A stretch of DNA of 64,000 bases from the NCBI GenBank assembly GCA_045612105.1, contig JAZKYL010000153.1:14832-78831 (forward strand). Direction: 5' to 3'. The notes under the pieces are model-generated. The model did not search any database. It worked only from the letters and a program-made list of their open reading frames with translations, and was not told where the DNA came from. The stretch is from Eubacteriales bacterium. GTDB taxonomy: Bacteria > Bacillota > Clostridia > Oscillospirales > CAG-272. Shown here in pieces: positions 49,877 to 53,386 of this stretch (position 1 is the first letter of the stretch; each line of letters begins with the position of its first letter). Made by a program: the position numbers and the translations under genes.

Positions 49877-50129
49877 TTTTCTTCCGTCCTTTCAAACAAG
49901 AAAACTATATGATGTGCAAATTGAGTCACGTTATTATATCACATTCGCCATATTTTGTCAATACATTGTAAAAACAATCCGTCATCAATCCGTCATATTA
50001 CTTGAAAACCAATTGCGATCTTTTTGTCTCTGCTATCTGATTATTAGCTATGTAAAAATTACACAAAATCCGAGTCCGAAAAACGAATTTTTTTCACAAA
50101 ATTATTTTCAATTTTTTTCAAAATAAGTA

Positions 50130-50158
50130 TTGACAAACCGATTTTTATGTGATATAAT
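50130..50158 (+). promoter_or_regulatory. promoter of tRNA-Pro
   Basis: TTGACA (50130-50135), 17 nt spacer, TGATATAAT extended -10 (TATAAT 50153-50158). Confidence 0.65.
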
Positions 50159-50187
50159 ATTCAAGTCGTCAAGAGACGACAAGGTTT

Positions 50188-50263
50188 CTGGGTGTGGCGC
50201 AGCTGGTAGCGCGCTACCTTGGGGTGGTAGAGGCCGCAAGTTCAAGTCTTGTCACTCAGACCA
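50188..50263 (+). tRNA. tRNA-Pro (anticodon GGG)
   Basis: Hand-folded cloverleaf of 76 nt. Acceptor CTGGGTG/CACTCAG with C1:G72, D arm GCGC/GCGC, anticodon stem CTACC/GGTAG with loop TTGGGGT (GGG plus G37), T arm GCAAG-TTCAAGT-CTTGT, encoded CCA. Confidence 0.9.
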
Positions 50264-50266
50264 AAT

Positions 50267-50306
50267 AAAGCCTTGAAAACATTGAGTTTTCAAGGCTTTA
50301 TTTTTT
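50267..50306 (+). terminator. terminator after tRNA-Pro
   Basis: 14-bp stem AAAGCCTTGAAAAC / GTTTTCAAGGCTTT, loop ATTGA, T run 50301-50306. Confidence 0.85.
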
Positions 50307-50409
50307 GCTTGTTACGCAGTTTTTATGAGGGGTGTTACGCAATTTGCTACGCAGATTTGTGTAATGCCCTGCTTTTTTTGTTACGTTTCAAGATATGTTT
50401 TTTCTCATC

Positions 50410-51318
50410 TTATTTCTCTTTGCTTAATTGTTCGCTGTTAAAAGGATTTCTATTCGGAACTAATCGCCCATCACTATAATTCCATATGGGACAAGAATCA
50501 TTCGGTCCGTATTGGTTTTGCACTTGTAAATGTTCGCAGAGCATCAAATAAGCAACTGCTTTTTTTGCATCTTTTTTCGATGACGCAAAAACACCTCTGA
50601 TTATGCCCGTAATATCATTTACAATCGAACTTGAACAATGCCATATTGGATTCCCGTTTTTATCGTAGCCTAAATGTTCCGGTCCAGAAAAATCGTACTT
50701 TGGCATGCTGCATTGTTCTTTTTCAGCTAATTCTTTCAATACGGTAACCGCGTTATCAATATTGATAGTTAAAGAGTTGTAATCGCTCTGAATGATAGTT
50801 TGAAGTCTATAATCAAGGTTTAAAGATTTTCTCACCGCAGTTTCAAGCACCACGGAATCCCACTTCGAATCTATAGCAATGGCTCCTATAATTGATTCGA
50901 ATAAGTCTGCCTTAACTTTCGTTTGTTGATCTACTTGATTCTTCTCATCGCTCCTGCCAACAATTAAGTATTCTGAAACACCCCATTCATCGATTATTGA
51001 TGCAAGCACTTCATTACTTACTATATCTTGTTTTAAAGAGGTAAAGTAATTCTCTCTGATTCGAAAAGAATAGTCCCCCTCTATATTCAAGGCACAGCAG
51101 CGATCAGAAATGATTTTTACAACGTAGTAGCTTAATACTTGATCCCCAATGAATTCAAACATTTCATTGCTTTTTCCTTCTTCTTCCGCACAGAAAGAAC
51201 GCCTCCGGAATGCTTGGCTCAAGGCGCAACTGCTTCGAATACAATACCCTGTTTTTTCTTGAATAAGCAACTTTAATTTGTGCTTATCTTGTCCGTTAAA
51301 ATACTTTTGTCTTCTCAT
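50410..51318 (-). CDS. accessory RNase III-family protein with C-terminal dsRNA-binding domain
   Basis: Start MRRQKYFNG (ATG 51316-51318) behind GGAGG. RNase III signature EMFEFIGDQVL and second catalytic motif KADLFESIIGAIAIDS. dsRBD-like PKYDFSGPEH...SSKKDAKKAVAYLML. Confidence 0.8.
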   Translation of the reverse strand: MRRQKYFNGQDKHKLKLLIQEKTGYCIRSSCALSQAFRRRSFCAEEEGKSNEMFEFIGDQVLSYYVVKIISDRCCALNIEGDYSFRIRENYFTSLKQDIVSNEVLASIIDEWGVSEYLIVGRSDEKNQVDQQTKVKADLFESIIGAIAIDSKWDSVVLETAVRKSLNLDYRLQTIIQSDYNSLTINIDNAVTVLKELAEKEQCSMPKYDFSGPEHLGYDKNGNPIWHCSSSIVNDITGIIRGVFASSKKDAKKAVAYLMLCEHLQVQNQYGPNDSCPIWNYSDGRLVPNRNPFNSEQLSKEK

Positions 51319-51620
51319 ATCTTCCTCCAAAATTGTTTTAATTGAAGAAAGAAAATAAGACCCTTGCACGCAGAAAAAACTACCCCATCAGGATAGACCT
51401 TCTCTGTGCGAAAGGTCTCAATCAATACAAAATAATACTTGTAAGACTTTCAGATTTTCAGGTCTACTTGCATAGACAAGAAAAACAAATTGCATTACTC
51501 AACTACTGTGTATCAATTGGTCCTTCCTTCAACATATAAATTATATCATGATTTTTATGAGTTGTCAATCGTTTTTGTAGCACAAAAAGATTATAAATAC
51601 AATGCCCTCTTGTTCTAGTG

Positions 51621-51649
51621 TTGACATATTTGCTATTTTGTAGTATAAT
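51621..51649 (+). promoter_or_regulatory. consensus sigma-70 promoter of the TIR operon
   Basis: TTGACA (51621-51626), exactly 17 nt spacer, TATAAT (51644-51649). Confidence 0.7.
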
Positions 51650-51685
51650 AATTATAGAATTTTAAATTAAGGGATAATTAATAAA

Positions 51686-52231
51686 ATGGCTTATGTAAAT
51701 ATTGCTCAAATATCTGATATCAGTAGACTAACATTCAGGAATCAAATTAGAGAACGAAGAGAAAAATGTGTATTTATCTCTCACAAAAAAGAAGATGAGC
51801 AGGCAGCTATAGACATAGGCAAGTTTCTTATGGAAATAGTAGGGGTAAACATATATTTGGATATTTTGGACGAACCTCTCCAAACAGCAACCCAAATAGA
51901 AAACGACAGGTTAATTGTTGATTCCATCAAAAAAGGGCTAGAATGCAGCACGCATTTACTTTGTCTTATATCAGATAAAACACATCTATCTTGGTGGGTA
52001 CCATATGAAATAGGCATAGCAGACAACAACAATCTTAGCATTGCCTCTTTGAAATTAAAAACAGTCACTGATATTCCATCTTTTTTGAAAATACATCCTG
52101 CATTTTACAACATTGATGAATTCGTTCGAAATGCAATTAGCTATAAGCAATTTGGAACAATATTTTTTAATGAAGATTATAACAGAATCTCTAACAAAAC
52201 AGAGATATTAAAAAAATATATAGATTCTTAA
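51686..52231 (+). CDS. TIR domain protein (181 aa)
   Basis: Beta-A motif CVFISHKKEDEQ, NIYLD, LLCLISDKTHLSWWVPYEIGIA (S-x-W...E motif holding the putative catalytic Glu). Confidence 0.75.
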   Translation: MAYVNIAQISDISRLTFRNQIRERREKCVFISHKKEDEQAAIDIGKFLMEIVGVNIYLDILDEPLQTATQIENDRLIVDSIKKGLECSTHLLCLISDKTHLSWWVPYEIGIADNNNLSIASLKLKTVTDIPSFLKIHPAFYNIDEFVRNAISYKQFGTIFFNEDYNRISNKTEILKKYIDS

Positions 52232-52241
52232 GGAGAACAAT

Positions 52242-52754
52242 ATGATCAAACACAAAGTATTTATAAGTTATTATCATCAAGATGATCAATATTATAAAAA
52301 TTATATTGACACTTTTTTAAGCGGAAACATAATCAACAAATCAGTAATGCCAGGAGAATACAATTCCGATAATAGCGACGAGTATATTAAAAGACTTATT
52401 CGAGAAGATAAAGTGAGCGACTCTTCAGTTGTTGTCGTATTGATTGGCCCTAATACTCGGAAAAGAAAACACGTAGACTGGGAAATCTCTGCCGGATTAA
52501 ACCCTAGTGTTAATGGAAATTCAGGATTGGTCGGGATATTGTTGCCTACTTATCCGATGATTGGCTTAAAGGTAAATGATGAATATTTGCCTGGTCGCAT
52601 ACGTGATAATTGGGATTCTGGATATGTGAATTTATACACTTGGAATTATGCTATCAATCACTTTGATGCAATTATACAGCAAGCATACGATGACAGAATA
52701 TACAAAAAAGGAAAAATTAATAATTCTCGTCCACAAATGAAATGCAATTATTGA
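52242..52754 (+). CDS. TIR-like protein, DUF1863/ThsB-type (170 aa)
   Basis: AGGAG RBS. KVFISYYHQDDQYY, SSVVVVLIGPNTRKRKHVDWEISAGL, then the GILLP segment typical of MTH538/ThsB-like TIR domains. Confidence 0.75.
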   Translation: MIKHKVFISYYHQDDQYYKNYIDTFLSGNIINKSVMPGEYNSDNSDEYIKRLIREDKVSDSSVVVVLIGPNTRKRKHVDWEISAGLNPSVNGNSGLVGILLPTYPMIGLKVNDEYLPGRIRDNWDSGYVNLYTWNYAINHFDAIIQQAYDDRIYKKGKINNSRPQMKCNY

Positions 52755-52765
52755 TGAGGATAGAA

Positions 52766-53386
52766 ATGAATATATTTGAATTTGAATTTGAAAATTGGTA
52801 TACCTTTTGTCTTCGCTTTAACTGGTTAGCATTAATTATTGCAACTATAGTTATAGTGGTAGTAGGCATTGTTGTAAAAAAGCTAGCTACTAGACTTGCA
52901 TATCACTCCATTGTTGTTGATGAAGTCTCCCTGGGAATTGGGAATAGCAACATAAAATTAAAATACAACAAAAAAGACCAAGAAATCGCCTACAAATTAT
53001 GGGTAGAACTTAACACGAGAAAAATAGGTCTTCCATATGATGAGAATTATGATGTTATAGTTGAAGTCTATAACTCTTGGTATGATTTCTTTAAAATAGC
53101 TAGAGAACTCTTAAAAGATATACCTCCAAACCGTCTTCCATACTCCACAAAACTAATCACTGTAACAACTGATGTTTTAAATGTGGGATTAAGACCACAC
53201 TTAACAAAGTGGCAAGCAAAATATCGCAAGTGGTACAACGAAAATCGTAAAGATTTGAGATCTCCGCAAGAAATACAACGAGCTTTCCCTGAATACGATG
53301 AGCTATTATCAGATCTTTTGATTACAAACAAACATATGATTGAATACAAAAATTTAATGTTTCAAATTGCATTTAATGAAAAGTAA
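52766..53386 (+). CDS. single-pass membrane protein of unknown family (206 aa), third gene of the TIR operon
   Basis: Start MNIFEF behind GAGGA, though the alternative ATGs at 52742 and 52754 cannot be excluded. TM helix LALIIATIVIVVVGIVV, then a soluble region of about 150 aa, apparently helical. I recognise no SIR2, SLOG, Macro or nuclease motif. Confidence 0.65.
   Translation: MNIFEFEFENWYTFCLRFNWLALIIATIVIVVVGIVVKKLATRLAYHSIVVDEVSLGIGNSNIKLKYNKKDQEIAYKLWVELNTRKIGLPYDENYDVIVEVYNSWYDFFKIARELLKDIPPNRLPYSTKLITVTTDVLNVGLRPHLTKWQAKYRKWYNENRKDLRSPQEIQRAFPEYDELLSDLLITNKHMIEYKNLMFQIAFNEK

What the first reader, a model, noticed from the sequence alone, without database searches (positions are those of the whole stretch)
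50410..51318. Accessory RNase III paralog with dsRBD in a defence-type island, divergent from the TIR operon
Seen in sequence: a 302-aa protein keeps both RNase III catalytic motifs (EFIGDQVL; KADLFESIIGAIAIDS) and a dsRBD-like C-terminus (SSKKDAKKAVAYLML). It also has extra N- and C-terminal segments and AT-rich island codon usage. Established knowledge: the housekeeping rnc of Firmicutes normally lies in the acpP/smc/ftsY neighbourhood, not next to a tRNA and integrase, so this is probably a second, horizontally acquired copy. Inference: it shares a 367-bp divergent control region with the TIR operon. A dsRNA-cleaving enzyme in a defence island could act on phage dsRNA or antisense transcripts, or cooperate with the TIR genes. 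I know of no described bacterial defence system built on RNase III.
Basis: partly seen in the sequence, partly recalled or inferred. Interest (0 to 1): 0.6.

Follow-up and report, generated by a model that had tools for sequence, protein, structure and literature searches.

The report
Mobile self-gated extra RNase III cassette
This is a real second copy of the double-stranded-RNA-cutting enzyme RNase III; it moves between gut bacteria and their prophages as a self-contained cassette with its own promoter and a conserved RNA hairpin leader absent from Rfam, it is independent of the neighbouring TIR defence operon, and what it does for the cell has not been shown.

Summary
Window 50410-51318 (-) encodes a 302-aa RNase III with all catalytic acidic residues, a dsRBD and family-specific additions. 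Its GC is 36.9% against 45.8% for the genome.

It is an extra copy. A canonical rnc (242 bits against TIGR02191, cut-off 166) lies elsewhere, next to smc; the window protein scores 84.6. It was found in 0 of 38 other species of the genus and 4 of 300 species of the family. Its tree ignores taxonomy, and a prophage clade is nested inside it.

The gene lies 19 bp inside the 173-bp attL repeat of a tRNA-Pro(GGG) island that carries TIR (Thoeris-like) and BrxL/PAPS-reductase genes.

The proposed link to the TIR operon is not supported. Homology with the closest relative (91% nt) ends at the RNase III promoter, and only 1 of 37 homologous loci has a ThsB-like gene nearby.

New here: the gene always travels with a consensus promoter and a ~220-nt leader. 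The leader holds a conserved 33-35-bp hairpin with strong covariation and no Rfam match, found upstream of the gene in at least 46 loci. This probably acts as an rncO-like self-cleavage gate.

A defence role is plausible from position and neighbours but is untested. This scan had already noted a sister cassette on other DNA.

The parts
50188..50263 (+). tRNA-Pro(GGG) gene, the integration target of the island
   Evidence: ARAGORN; Rfam tRNA 60.7 bits
50219..50391 (.). attL: a 173-bp direct repeat made of the tRNA 3' half, the terminator hairpin and the GTTACGCA repeats. Its second copy (attR, 91.9% identical) is at G000:C45:23296-23467, where low-GC DNA meets core DNA.
   Evidence: blastn; GC profile of C45
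50263..50303 (.). 18-bp hairpin with T-runs on both sides, a likely bidirectional terminator for the tRNA and the RNase III gene
   Evidence: sequence
50410..51318 (-). Coding sequence of the accessory RNase III paralog (302 aa): RNase III domain, dsRBD and family-specific additions
51320..51328 (-). Shine-Dalgarno sequence GGAGGAAGA. It can pair with the upstream UCUUUCUUC anti-SD, and a GAAGGAAGG mimic at the 5' end of the leader competes for the same anti-SD.
   Evidence: sequence; folds; helix 1 counts
51344..51419 (-). Second leader hairpin followed by a U-rich tract (terminator-like; inner stem 51380-51396). Its sequence varies between relatives but the pairing is kept.
   Evidence: helix 5 (70.6% of cells paired, 17 of 27 pairs with changes on both sides)
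51416..51522 (-). Conserved 107-nt leader hairpin with 33-35 bp in three helices (model R1), the candidate RNase III substrate or operator
   Evidence: no Rfam match; a single copy in the genome
51540..51568 (-). Consensus sigma-70 promoter of the cassette: TTGACA, 17 nt, TATAAT with an upstream TG (12 of 12 matches)
   Evidence: conserved in relatives; nucleotide homology to L005 ends at 51548
51621..51649 (+). Separate consensus promoter of the neighbouring TIR operon. It is not part of the cassette.

Best explanation
The gene encodes a catalytically intact, homodimeric class-1-type RNase III (nuclease domain plus dsRBD). It belongs to a distinct family that is always additional to the housekeeping Rnc. 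The gene travels as an autonomous cassette: a consensus promoter, a ~220-nt structured leader and the gene itself. The cassette is moron-like cargo at the ends of integrative elements and prophages of gut and rumen Firmicutes. In this genome it is the first gene inside attL of a tRNA-Pro(GGG) defence island, and it is independent of the adjacent TIR operon. Shown: identity, fold, second-copy status, mobility, the cassette boundaries, and the conserved, covarying leader hairpin. Inferred: the 33-35-bp leader hairpin is cut or bound by the enzyme, which would give negative feedback like E. coli rncO. The closing helix, terminator-like stem and anti-SD pairing would then set how much enzyme is made. 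Further inferred, with lower confidence (about 0.35-0.4): the enzyme's payload function is in conflict between mobile elements and phages, probably cutting foreign or convergent-transcript dsRNA as a single-gene exclusion or defence module.
For: Identity. The acidic residues E52, E55, D59, E89, D138 and E141 are conserved, and all six are invariant in the 12-sequence family alignment. Dimer: the homodimer model scores 0.84 against 0.08 for the best of 3 controls. That mark was reached by 20 of 30 proteins solved as pairs of one chain and by 1 of 23 solved as single chains. The runs share at least 81% of contacts and the partner pLDDT is at least 85. The interface is the signature helix plus the family-specific hairpin 75-85. 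Because RNase III dimers are solved, the pass may come from memory. Second copy: a canonical rnc at 242 bits lies next to smc. All 4 other genomes of the same family that carry the paralog also have a canonical rnc above 240 bits. All 40 sampled genomes of the phylum have an rnc match (39 above the cut-off, one truncated at 108 bits) and none has the paralog. Separate clade: the canonical sequences and the paralog family split with 100% SH-aLRT; taxonomy is scrambled within the family and a viral clade is nested in it. Rarity: 0 of 38 species of the genus, 4 of 300 of the family, and 1 close member plus 4 sister-family members among 398 genomes of the class. Mobility: attL and attR repeats with a GC shift; tRNA genes within 400 bp of the gene in at least 5 loci; tyrosine or serine recombinases within 10 kb in 9 of 37 loci; and 12 IMG/VR contigs where the gene lies beside two large serine recombinases or after tail genes. 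Cassette: 91% nucleotide homology to L005 spans exactly 50187-51548. Leader: promoter; fold of -70.6 kcal/mol with z = -5.8; hairpin with 90.6% of cells paired against 45-50% in slid controls, 20 pairs with compensatory changes, and 0 of 500 shuffles as good. Model R1 finds one copy directly upstream of the gene in at least 46 loci, including members that were not in the seed and the viral contigs, and only one copy in this genome. Defence-type neighbours: TIR operon and BrxL/PAPS cluster here; BrxA/BrxB (L053), type I R-M (L039), HEC-05 (L028), an SspH-like gene (L014), a type III REase (L032) and a dGTPase (L011).
Against: No cleavage, feedback or phage-resistance data exist. There is no PADLOC match for the protein. 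No member was found in the collections of deposited phage genomes or plasmids. Many homologs sit beside ordinary genes such as spoVAD, an MFS transporter and glycoside hydrolases. The defence association was not tested against a control set. Expression evidence is weak: only RNA-library contigs. The host's own RNase III could equally be the enzyme that acts on the leader.
Confidence: 0.6

Rival explanations
1. The element's own RNA-processing or regulatory enzyme. The island or prophage carries an RNase III to process its own transcripts or to set integrase, excision or lysis-lysogeny decisions, as lambda does with host RNase III (N leader, cIII, sib retroregulation of int). On this reading it does not act on invaders.
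For: The gene sits close to integrases and att sites here and in the viral contigs. It has a structured leader of the kind that RNase III acts on. The lambda precedent is established knowledge.
Against: It has its own constitutive-looking consensus promoter and is not embedded in phage operons. The same cassette occurs in contexts with no recognisable element genes. No second R1-like hairpin or other repeated target site was found in the island or the genome.
Confidence: 0.2
2. A counter-defence gene. The mobile element uses the RNase III to destroy structured host immune RNAs or the viral RNAs that trigger sensors, such as crRNA precursors, retron ncRNA, type III antitoxin RNA or CBASS-activating phage RNA.
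For: It is carried by prophages in accessory regions. RNase III can cut such RNAs in principle (general knowledge).
Against: Here, in L053 and in L039 it lies next to defence genes inside islands or prophages, a setting typical of defence cargo rather than anti-defence cargo. No early-gene or leading-region context was seen.
Confidence: 0.1
3. One reading: the RNase III works with the neighbouring TIR (Thoeris-like) operon as an effector or helper and shares its control region.
For: Physical adjacency and divergent orientation with a 367-bp gap.
Against: Only 1 of 37 homologous loci has a ThsB-like gene, and it lies 5 kb away. No neighbour gene is conserved across the loci. Homology to the closest relative stops at the RNase III promoter. 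There are two separate promoters. The TIR operon has its own putative membrane effector, and the paper describing Thoeris types never mentions RNase III.
Confidence: 0.04
4. A sub-functionalised host paralog for a cellular task, such as tRNA/rRNA or sporulation-linked RNA processing, that only happens to lie near mobile DNA.
For: It is adjacent to tRNA genes in several loci and to spoVAD in one clade. Multiple RNase III homologs with cellular roles exist in cyanobacteria (PMC5829567, listed).
Against: Prevalence is about 1% and the distribution is patchy. The phylogeny is incongruent with taxonomy. The gene is AT-rich relative to the host, lies inside att repeats, and is present in prophage contigs.
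Confidence: 0.06

Closest known systems
Bacterial class-1 RNase III (Rnc; E. coli 7r97, T. maritima 1o0w, A. aeolicus 2nue/1yyk)
   Same: One RNase III domain plus one dsRBD, all catalytic acidic residues, the same fold, and a predicted homodimer through the signature helix.
   Different: It scores 84.6 bits against the 166-bit TIGR02191 cut-off and shares only 25-29% identity with the genome's own Rnc. It has an added N-terminal helix, a beta-hairpin insert that joins the dimer interface, a longer linker and a C-terminal beta-hairpin. It is accessory, rare and mobile, and it is not in the rnc-smc context.
rncO, the autoregulatory 5' leader hairpin of the E. coli rnc-era-recO operon
   Same: A long irregular hairpin in the 5' UTR of an RNase III gene, the natural design for self-cleavage feedback (the principle is covered by papers listed, e.g. 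PMC3867540).
   Different: There is no sequence or Rfam relationship. This leader is larger, with a closing helix, a 33-35-bp hairpin, a terminator-like hairpin and anti-SD pairing, and it belongs to a mobile paralog. Cleavage has not been shown.
Sister cassette noted earlier in this scan (a two-dsRBD RNase III of 336-397 aa with its own leader; e1-2137845, e1-2137846)
   Same: A mobile accessory RNase III of gut Clostridia with a structured leader absent from Rfam. It groups with this family on the paralog side of the 100%-supported split from canonical rnc, but the two are not resolved as separate clades there. A weak R1-like hit lies upstream of one member.
   Different: The protein is longer and matches in two stretches. 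These are AI notes, and I checked them only in part.
Prophage morons and lysogenic-conversion cargo, including prophage-borne defence genes
   Same: Own promoter and terminator, AT-rich relative to its surroundings, placed between the lysis/tail module or integrase and the att site, with variable neighbours.
   Different: No phenotype is known. No RNase III-based cargo of this type turned up in the literature searches.
Mini-III (MrnC/YazC)
   Same: A second RNase III-family enzyme in Firmicutes.
   Different: Mini-III has no dsRBD and is a conserved rRNA-maturation enzyme. This protein has a dsRBD and is accessory.

Membership tests
RNase III superfamily, class 1 architecture | Signature motif and catalytic acidic residues (E. 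coli E38, E41, D45, E65, D114, E117) | tested here: met
   E52, E55, D59, E89, D138 and E141 are present and invariant in the 12-sequence family alignment. Pfam PF00636 scores 60.8 bits.
RNase III superfamily, class 1 architecture | C-terminal dsRBD (alpha-beta-beta-beta-alpha) | tested here: met
   The TIGR02191 alignment runs to model position 214. Profile positions 186-260 match the dsRBDs of TARBP2, Loquacious and R2D2. The AlphaFold2 model shows H190-199, E207-211, E226-233, E238-245 and H248-264. Pfam dsrm itself did not hit at E<=0.01.
RNase III superfamily, class 1 architecture | Homodimer through the nuclease domain | tested here: met
   Model score 0.84 against 0.08 for the best control. 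The mark was reached by 20 of 30 proteins solved as pairs of one chain and by 1 of 23 solved as single chains. Contact agreement is at least 81% and pLDDT at least 85. The pass may come from memory of solved RNase III dimers. This is a prediction only.
RNase III superfamily, class 1 architecture | Mg-dependent cleavage of dsRNA | not testable with these tools
   This needs an enzyme assay.
Housekeeping Rnc orthologs (TIGR02191 equivalog) | Score above the curated cut-off (166.25 bits) | tested here: not met
   84.6 bits, whereas the copy at G000:C50 scores 242.4.
Housekeeping Rnc orthologs (TIGR02191 equivalog) | Conserved core context and near-universal presence | tested here: not met
   The canonical copy lies in dprA-topA-trmFO...rnc-radical SAM-smc. 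The paralog is in a tRNA island and was found in 0 of 38 other species of the genus.
Mini-III | RNase III domain without a dsRBD, about 140 aa | tested here: not met
   The protein is 302 aa and has a dsRBD.
Thoeris (as a component of the adjacent TIR operon) | Conserved co-occurrence with ThsB/TIR genes in homologous loci | tested here: not met
   1 of 37 loci has a ThsB-like gene, 5 kb away, and nucleotide homology breaks at the promoter.
Known or candidate anti-phage systems (PADLOC-DB 2.0) | Match to a defence-protein model | tested here: not met
   No PADLOC family at E<=0.01.
rncO-type autoregulatory leader | Long hairpin in the 5' UTR of the RNase III mRNA, conserved with covariation | tested here: met
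rncO-type autoregulatory leader | Membership of the Rfam rncO family or any other Rfam family | tested here: not met
   No Rfam match at E<=1 in 51319-51600.
rncO-type autoregulatory leader | Cleavage by the encoded enzyme with lowered expression | not testable with these tools
   This needs in vitro cleavage and reporter assays.

The most novel reading that the evidence does not exclude
The cassette is a single-gene, self-gated antiviral RNase III. It would be carried by prophages and defence islands, held at a low level by cutting its own leader hairpin, and it would restrict incoming phages by cutting their dsRNA (convergent transcripts or structured RNAs). That would make it a bacterial, horizontally mobile counterpart of RNase III/Dicer-type antiviral defence, and a defence class absent from current catalogues.
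Probability: 0.3. Interest if true: 0.85.

Novelty: new variant of a known kind. Interest (0 to 1): 0.6.

Why it matters
RNase III is usually treated as a single housekeeping enzyme in bacteria. This work defines a separate, mobile RNase III family with about 500 homologs in public data. It is spread across gut and rumen Firmicutes and their prophages, and every copy carries the same RNA leader, which is absent from Rfam. That yields two things that can be tested directly. The first is a new cis-regulatory RNA with strong covariation, which is probably an RNase III operator. The second is a candidate single-gene module acting on dsRNA in conflicts between phages and mobile elements, for which I found no described precedent. 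The work also corrects the annotation of this locus: the RNase III gene is not part of the neighbouring TIR system.

Tried and rejected
The neighbourhoods of the ~120 metagenomic homologs could therefore not be read. Context analysis rests on 37 GTDB loci, 12 IMG/VR loci and a few genome handles.
2. Deposited phage genomes (INPHARED) and plasmids (PLSDB) hold only canonical rnc matches at 25-33% identity, and no family member.
3. An Rfam scan of 50100-51750 at E<=1 returned only the tRNA and chance hits.
4. I looked for an empty site in other species of the genus, using the GH42 gene next to attR. The closest relatives match only from query position 161 onward and have no tRNA beside that gene, so no clean empty site was recovered.
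5. All runs that could be laid were contigs. Leader and gene sequence is present in RNA libraries of animal gut samples, but this shows neither transcription nor transcript ends.
6. A conserved partner gene was sought by all-against-all clustering of 502 neighbouring ORFs, and none was found.
7. I tried to confirm the earlier 'type VI Thoeris / ThsG (DUF6650)' label for 52742-53386 with Pfam. There was no PF20355 hit even at E<=1. I therefore call the operon 'Thoeris-like TIR operon'.
8. A zinc site formed by the conserved Cys/His residues (C228, C261, H263) was considered. Only C228 is nearly invariant in the wider family, so I dropped the idea.
9. A formal test of defence enrichment was not possible.
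Full report
**Observation**

The ORF at window 50410-51318 on the minus strand is 302 aa long. It starts at the ATG at 51318, and a strong Shine-Dalgarno sequence (GGAGGAAGA, 51320-51328) lies 1 nt upstream of that ATG.

- Pfam Ribonuclease_3 scores 60.8 bits.
- NCBIfam TIGR02191 aligns over model positions 2-214, so it reaches through the dsRBD. It scores only 84.6 bits against a cut-off of 166.
- A profile of 41 family members matches solved bacterial RNase III proteins end to end. Its positions 186-260 match the dsRBDs of TARBP2, Loquacious and R2D2.
- An AlphaFold2 model (pLDDT 92.7) finds T. maritima, E. coli and A. aeolicus RNase III as its best Foldseek hits.

The catalytic acidic residues E52, E55, D59, E89, D138 and E141 are present, and all are invariant in the 12-sequence family alignment.

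The family adds several elements to the canonical fold:

- an N-terminal helix (residues 9-23);
- a beta-hairpin insert (75-85);
- a two-helix linker;
- a C-terminal beta-hairpin (278-288).

A homodimer model scores 0.84, against 0.08 for the best of 3 controls. That mark was reached by 20 of 30 proteins solved as pairs of one chain and by 1 of 23 proteins solved as single chains. The runs share at least 81% of contacts and the partner pLDDT is at least 85. The interface is the signature helix plus the family-specific hairpin. Because RNase III dimers have been solved, this pass may reflect memory of those structures.

The gene is AT-rich: GC 36.9% and GC3 34%. The genome's own rnc has 48.1% and 51.6%, and the genome as a whole has 45.8%.

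**It is a second copy**

The genome has a canonical rnc at G000:C50:11037-11708. It scores 242 bits, has a Pfam dsrm hit, and lies in the classical dprA-topA-trmFO ... rnc-radical SAM-smc neighbourhood. The two proteins share about 25-29% identity.

- Four other genomes of the same taxonomic family carry the paralog, and each also has a canonical rnc above 240 bits.
- In 40 genomes drawn across the phylum, every one has an rnc match (39 above the cut-off, one truncated at 108 bits) and none has the paralog.
- In a tree of 92 sequences, 34 canonical proteins split from 58 paralog-type proteins with 100% SH-aLRT support. Within the paralog clade taxonomy is scrambled, with near-identical proteins in bins labelled Lachnospiraceae, Elusimicrobiaceae and Prevotellaceae. 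A clade from viral contigs is nested inside it.

**Distribution**

| Sample | Genomes with the paralog |
|---|---|
| Other species of the genus | 0 of 38 |
| Species of the family | 4 of 300 |
| Genomes of the class | 1 close member (with an in-frame stop) and 4 sister-family members, of 398 |

Public protein data hold about 500 homologs at E<=1e-3. These fall into 55 clusters (at 50% identity) with E<=1e-30. Sequencing runs holding near-identical DNA come from bovine and other animal gut samples.

**Genomic setting here**

The tRNA-Pro(GGG) gene is at 50188-50263. A 173-bp stretch at 50219-50391 comprises the tRNA 3' half, the terminator hairpin and the GTTACGCA repeats. It recurs at 91.9% identity at G000:C45:23296-23467. 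At that point about 23 kb of low-GC DNA (35-41%) meets core DNA (43-51%) and a GH42 gene. I read these two copies as attL and attR of one island, or a tandem of islands, split over two contigs.

The RNase III stop codon lies 19 bp inside attL. The island also carries:

- two ThsB-like TIR genes and a membrane protein;
- a DUF6809 gene and a tyrosine integrase;
- on C45, BrxL, a PAPS reductase, DUF7862-7864 and a cysteine desulfurase.

The label 'defence-type island' is therefore fair.

**No link to the TIR operon**

- tblastn of the island's proteins against 37 homologous loci found a ThsB-like gene in only one, 5 kb away from the RNase III gene.
- Clustering 502 neighbouring ORFs found no conserved partner gene at all.
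- The closest relative (L005, 92% protein identity) has the same tRNA-Pro/RNase III junction. It shares 91% nucleotide identity over exactly 50187-51548, and the homology stops at the RNase III promoter.
- The 367-bp gap holds two separate, back-to-back 12-of-12 consensus promoters, at 51568->51540 (minus strand) and 51621->51649 (plus strand).
- The preprint that defines the newer Thoeris types does not mention RNase III.
- An earlier agent's label of 'type VI Thoeris' for the operon could not be reproduced with Pfam: there is no DUF6650 hit even at E<=1.

**The new element: a conserved leader**

Upstream regions of homologs whose proteins are only 41-92% identical align well at the nucleotide level. 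The window's 217-nt leader folds at -70.6 kcal/mol (z = -5.8).

On a MAFFT alignment of 24 leaders, RNAalifold predicts a hairpin of 35 pairs in three helices. The pair counts are as follows:

| Measure | Observed | Slid controls |
|---|---|---|
| Cells forming standard pairs | 90.6% | 45-50% |
| Pairs with changes on both sides | 20 | 8-13 |
| Cells with changes on both sides | 103 | 15-27 |

None of 500 shuffles reached the observed values.

A covariance model, R1 (107 positions, 33 pairs), finds exactly one strong hit directly upstream of the gene, on the sense strand, in at least 46 loci. These include members not used to build the model and all the viral contigs, at 55-105 bits. On the alignment of 45 hits, which is fitted to the model and so leans towards it, 25 of 33 pairs show compensatory changes. 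The model hits only once in this genome, and Rfam has no matching family. Frequent G-U pairs fix the strand.

Downstream of this hairpin lie three further features:

- a second, more variable hairpin followed by a U-rich tract, which looks like a terminator;
- an anti-SD stretch that can pair with the ribosome-binding site;
- a competing SD-like mimic at the 5' end of the leader, which closes the whole leader in the minimum-free-energy fold.

The closing helix and the second hairpin have moderate comparative support, at 60.6% and 70.6% of cells paired, with many double changes.

**Where the cassette sits elsewhere**

- tRNA genes lie within 400 bp of the gene in L005, L012, L015, L016 and the window.
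- Tyrosine or large serine recombinases occur within 10 kb in 9 of 37 loci.
- Twelve IMG/VR contigs carry relatives of about 277 aa (35-42% identity). These lie next to two large serine recombinases or just after tail-fibre and small genes, which is the usual position of moron or lysogenic-conversion cargo.

Defence-type genes within two genes of the RNase III gene:

| Locus | Neighbour |
|---|---|
| L053 | BrxA and BrxB |
| L039 | type I HsdR, followed by two further ORFs not scanned |
| L028 | HEC-05 |
| L014 | SspH-like gene |
| L032 | type III REase |
| L011 | dGTPase |
| L037 | HipA-like gene (PDC-M03A) |
| L021, L022 | WYL regulators |
| L005 | IrrE/capP-like peptidase |

Other copies sit beside ordinary genes such as spoVAD, an MFS transporter and glycoside hydrolases. 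No matched control set could be analysed, so this is suggestive and nothing more.

**Mechanism**

Shown by computation:

- the protein is an intact, dimer-capable RNase III with a dsRBD;
- it is encoded by an autonomous, mobile promoter-leader-gene unit.

Inferred: the 33-35-bp leader hairpin is long enough to be an RNase III substrate. Its strict linkage to this gene, with no other copy in the genome, fits self-cleavage feedback of the rncO type. The alternative pairings (closing helix against anti-SD, and the terminator-like stem) would convert cleavage or binding into changed expression.

The payload function is open. I favour a role in conflict between mobile elements and phages (about 0.35-0.4) because of three things: moron-like placement in prophages and island ends, the independent promoter, and frequent defence neighbours. 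Rival readings are given separately: the element's own RNA processing, counter-defence, a cellular paralog, and cooperation with the TIR operon.

**Relation to what is known**

The protein is a member of the RNase III superfamily with class-1 architecture. It is not an ortholog of housekeeping Rnc, not Mini-III, and not in PADLOC. Literature searches found no described RNase III-based defence system or prophage-borne RNase III of this kind.

Earlier notes in this scan describe a sister cassette on other DNA: a two-dsRBD RNase III with its own leader absent from Rfam (e1-2137845 and e1-2137846). They also record similar orphan paralogs (e1-1408083, e1-4285767). I found the leader here independently, before reading those notes. 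A weak R1-like hit upstream of one sister-family gene links the two families.

**Verdict**

The finding is a new variant of a known kind. Interest is 0.6. This rests mainly on the cassette's conserved, covarying leader RNA and on the testable possibility of a single-gene, dsRNA-directed module carried by prophages and islands.

Noticed in passing
G000:C45:1-23467 (loci L047, L048) and window 50219-50391: The probable other end of the island is on a different contig. A 173-bp repeat of the tRNA-Pro 3' half plus downstream sequence marks the junction between low-GC DNA and core DNA. The low-GC part carries BrxL, a PAPS reductase, DUF7862-7864 and a cysteine desulfurase, which looks like a BREX- or phosphorothioation-type defence cluster.
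   Followed up: partly
window 52742-53386: The 214-aa membrane protein of the TIR operon gives no Pfam DUF6650 (PF20355) hit even at E<=1. The earlier label 'type VI Thoeris / ThsG' is therefore not reproduced by this test.
   Followed up: partly
L053:9971-12331: On a prophage-like IMG/VR contig with tail genes, the RNase III paralog is followed immediately by BrxA and BrxB, the start of a BREX system.
   Followed up: partly
L009:9323-9775, L010:9319-9720, L013:10951-11967, L027:11084-12214: In one clade of the family the cassette lies beside spoVAD. In L009 and L010 the spoVAD ORF is only 133-150 aa, and in L027 it is in two pieces. This could mean disruption by insertion or simply poor ORF calls.
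   Followed up: no
window 51128-51520: Contigs from RNA libraries of two runs of one bovine-gut study match this stretch with 0-1 mismatches. Both stop at 51519/51520, about 13 nt downstream of the predicted transcription start, while a DNA contig runs on to 51544. This is only a weak hint of a transcript 5' end.
   Followed up: partly
P0183 (alignment A5); G549:C50:37864-38748: Some family members look inactivated. P0183 has degenerate catalytic motifs (LGYLGK, KAILFKS), and one close genomic member has an in-frame TAA.
   Followed up: no
L046:1303-1402 (G081:C178): The longer sister family (ORFs of 336-397 aa, matched in two stretches) has a weak R1-like hairpin hit (24.8 bits) directly upstream of its gene. 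This suggests the leader is older than the split between the two families.
   Followed up: no
L056:7531-8076: In several viral contigs the gene after the RNase III paralog is a 182-aa nucleotidyltransferase that matches Pfam Aminoglyc_resit (aminoglycoside 2''-adenylyltransferase-like, E = 2e-26).
   Followed up: no
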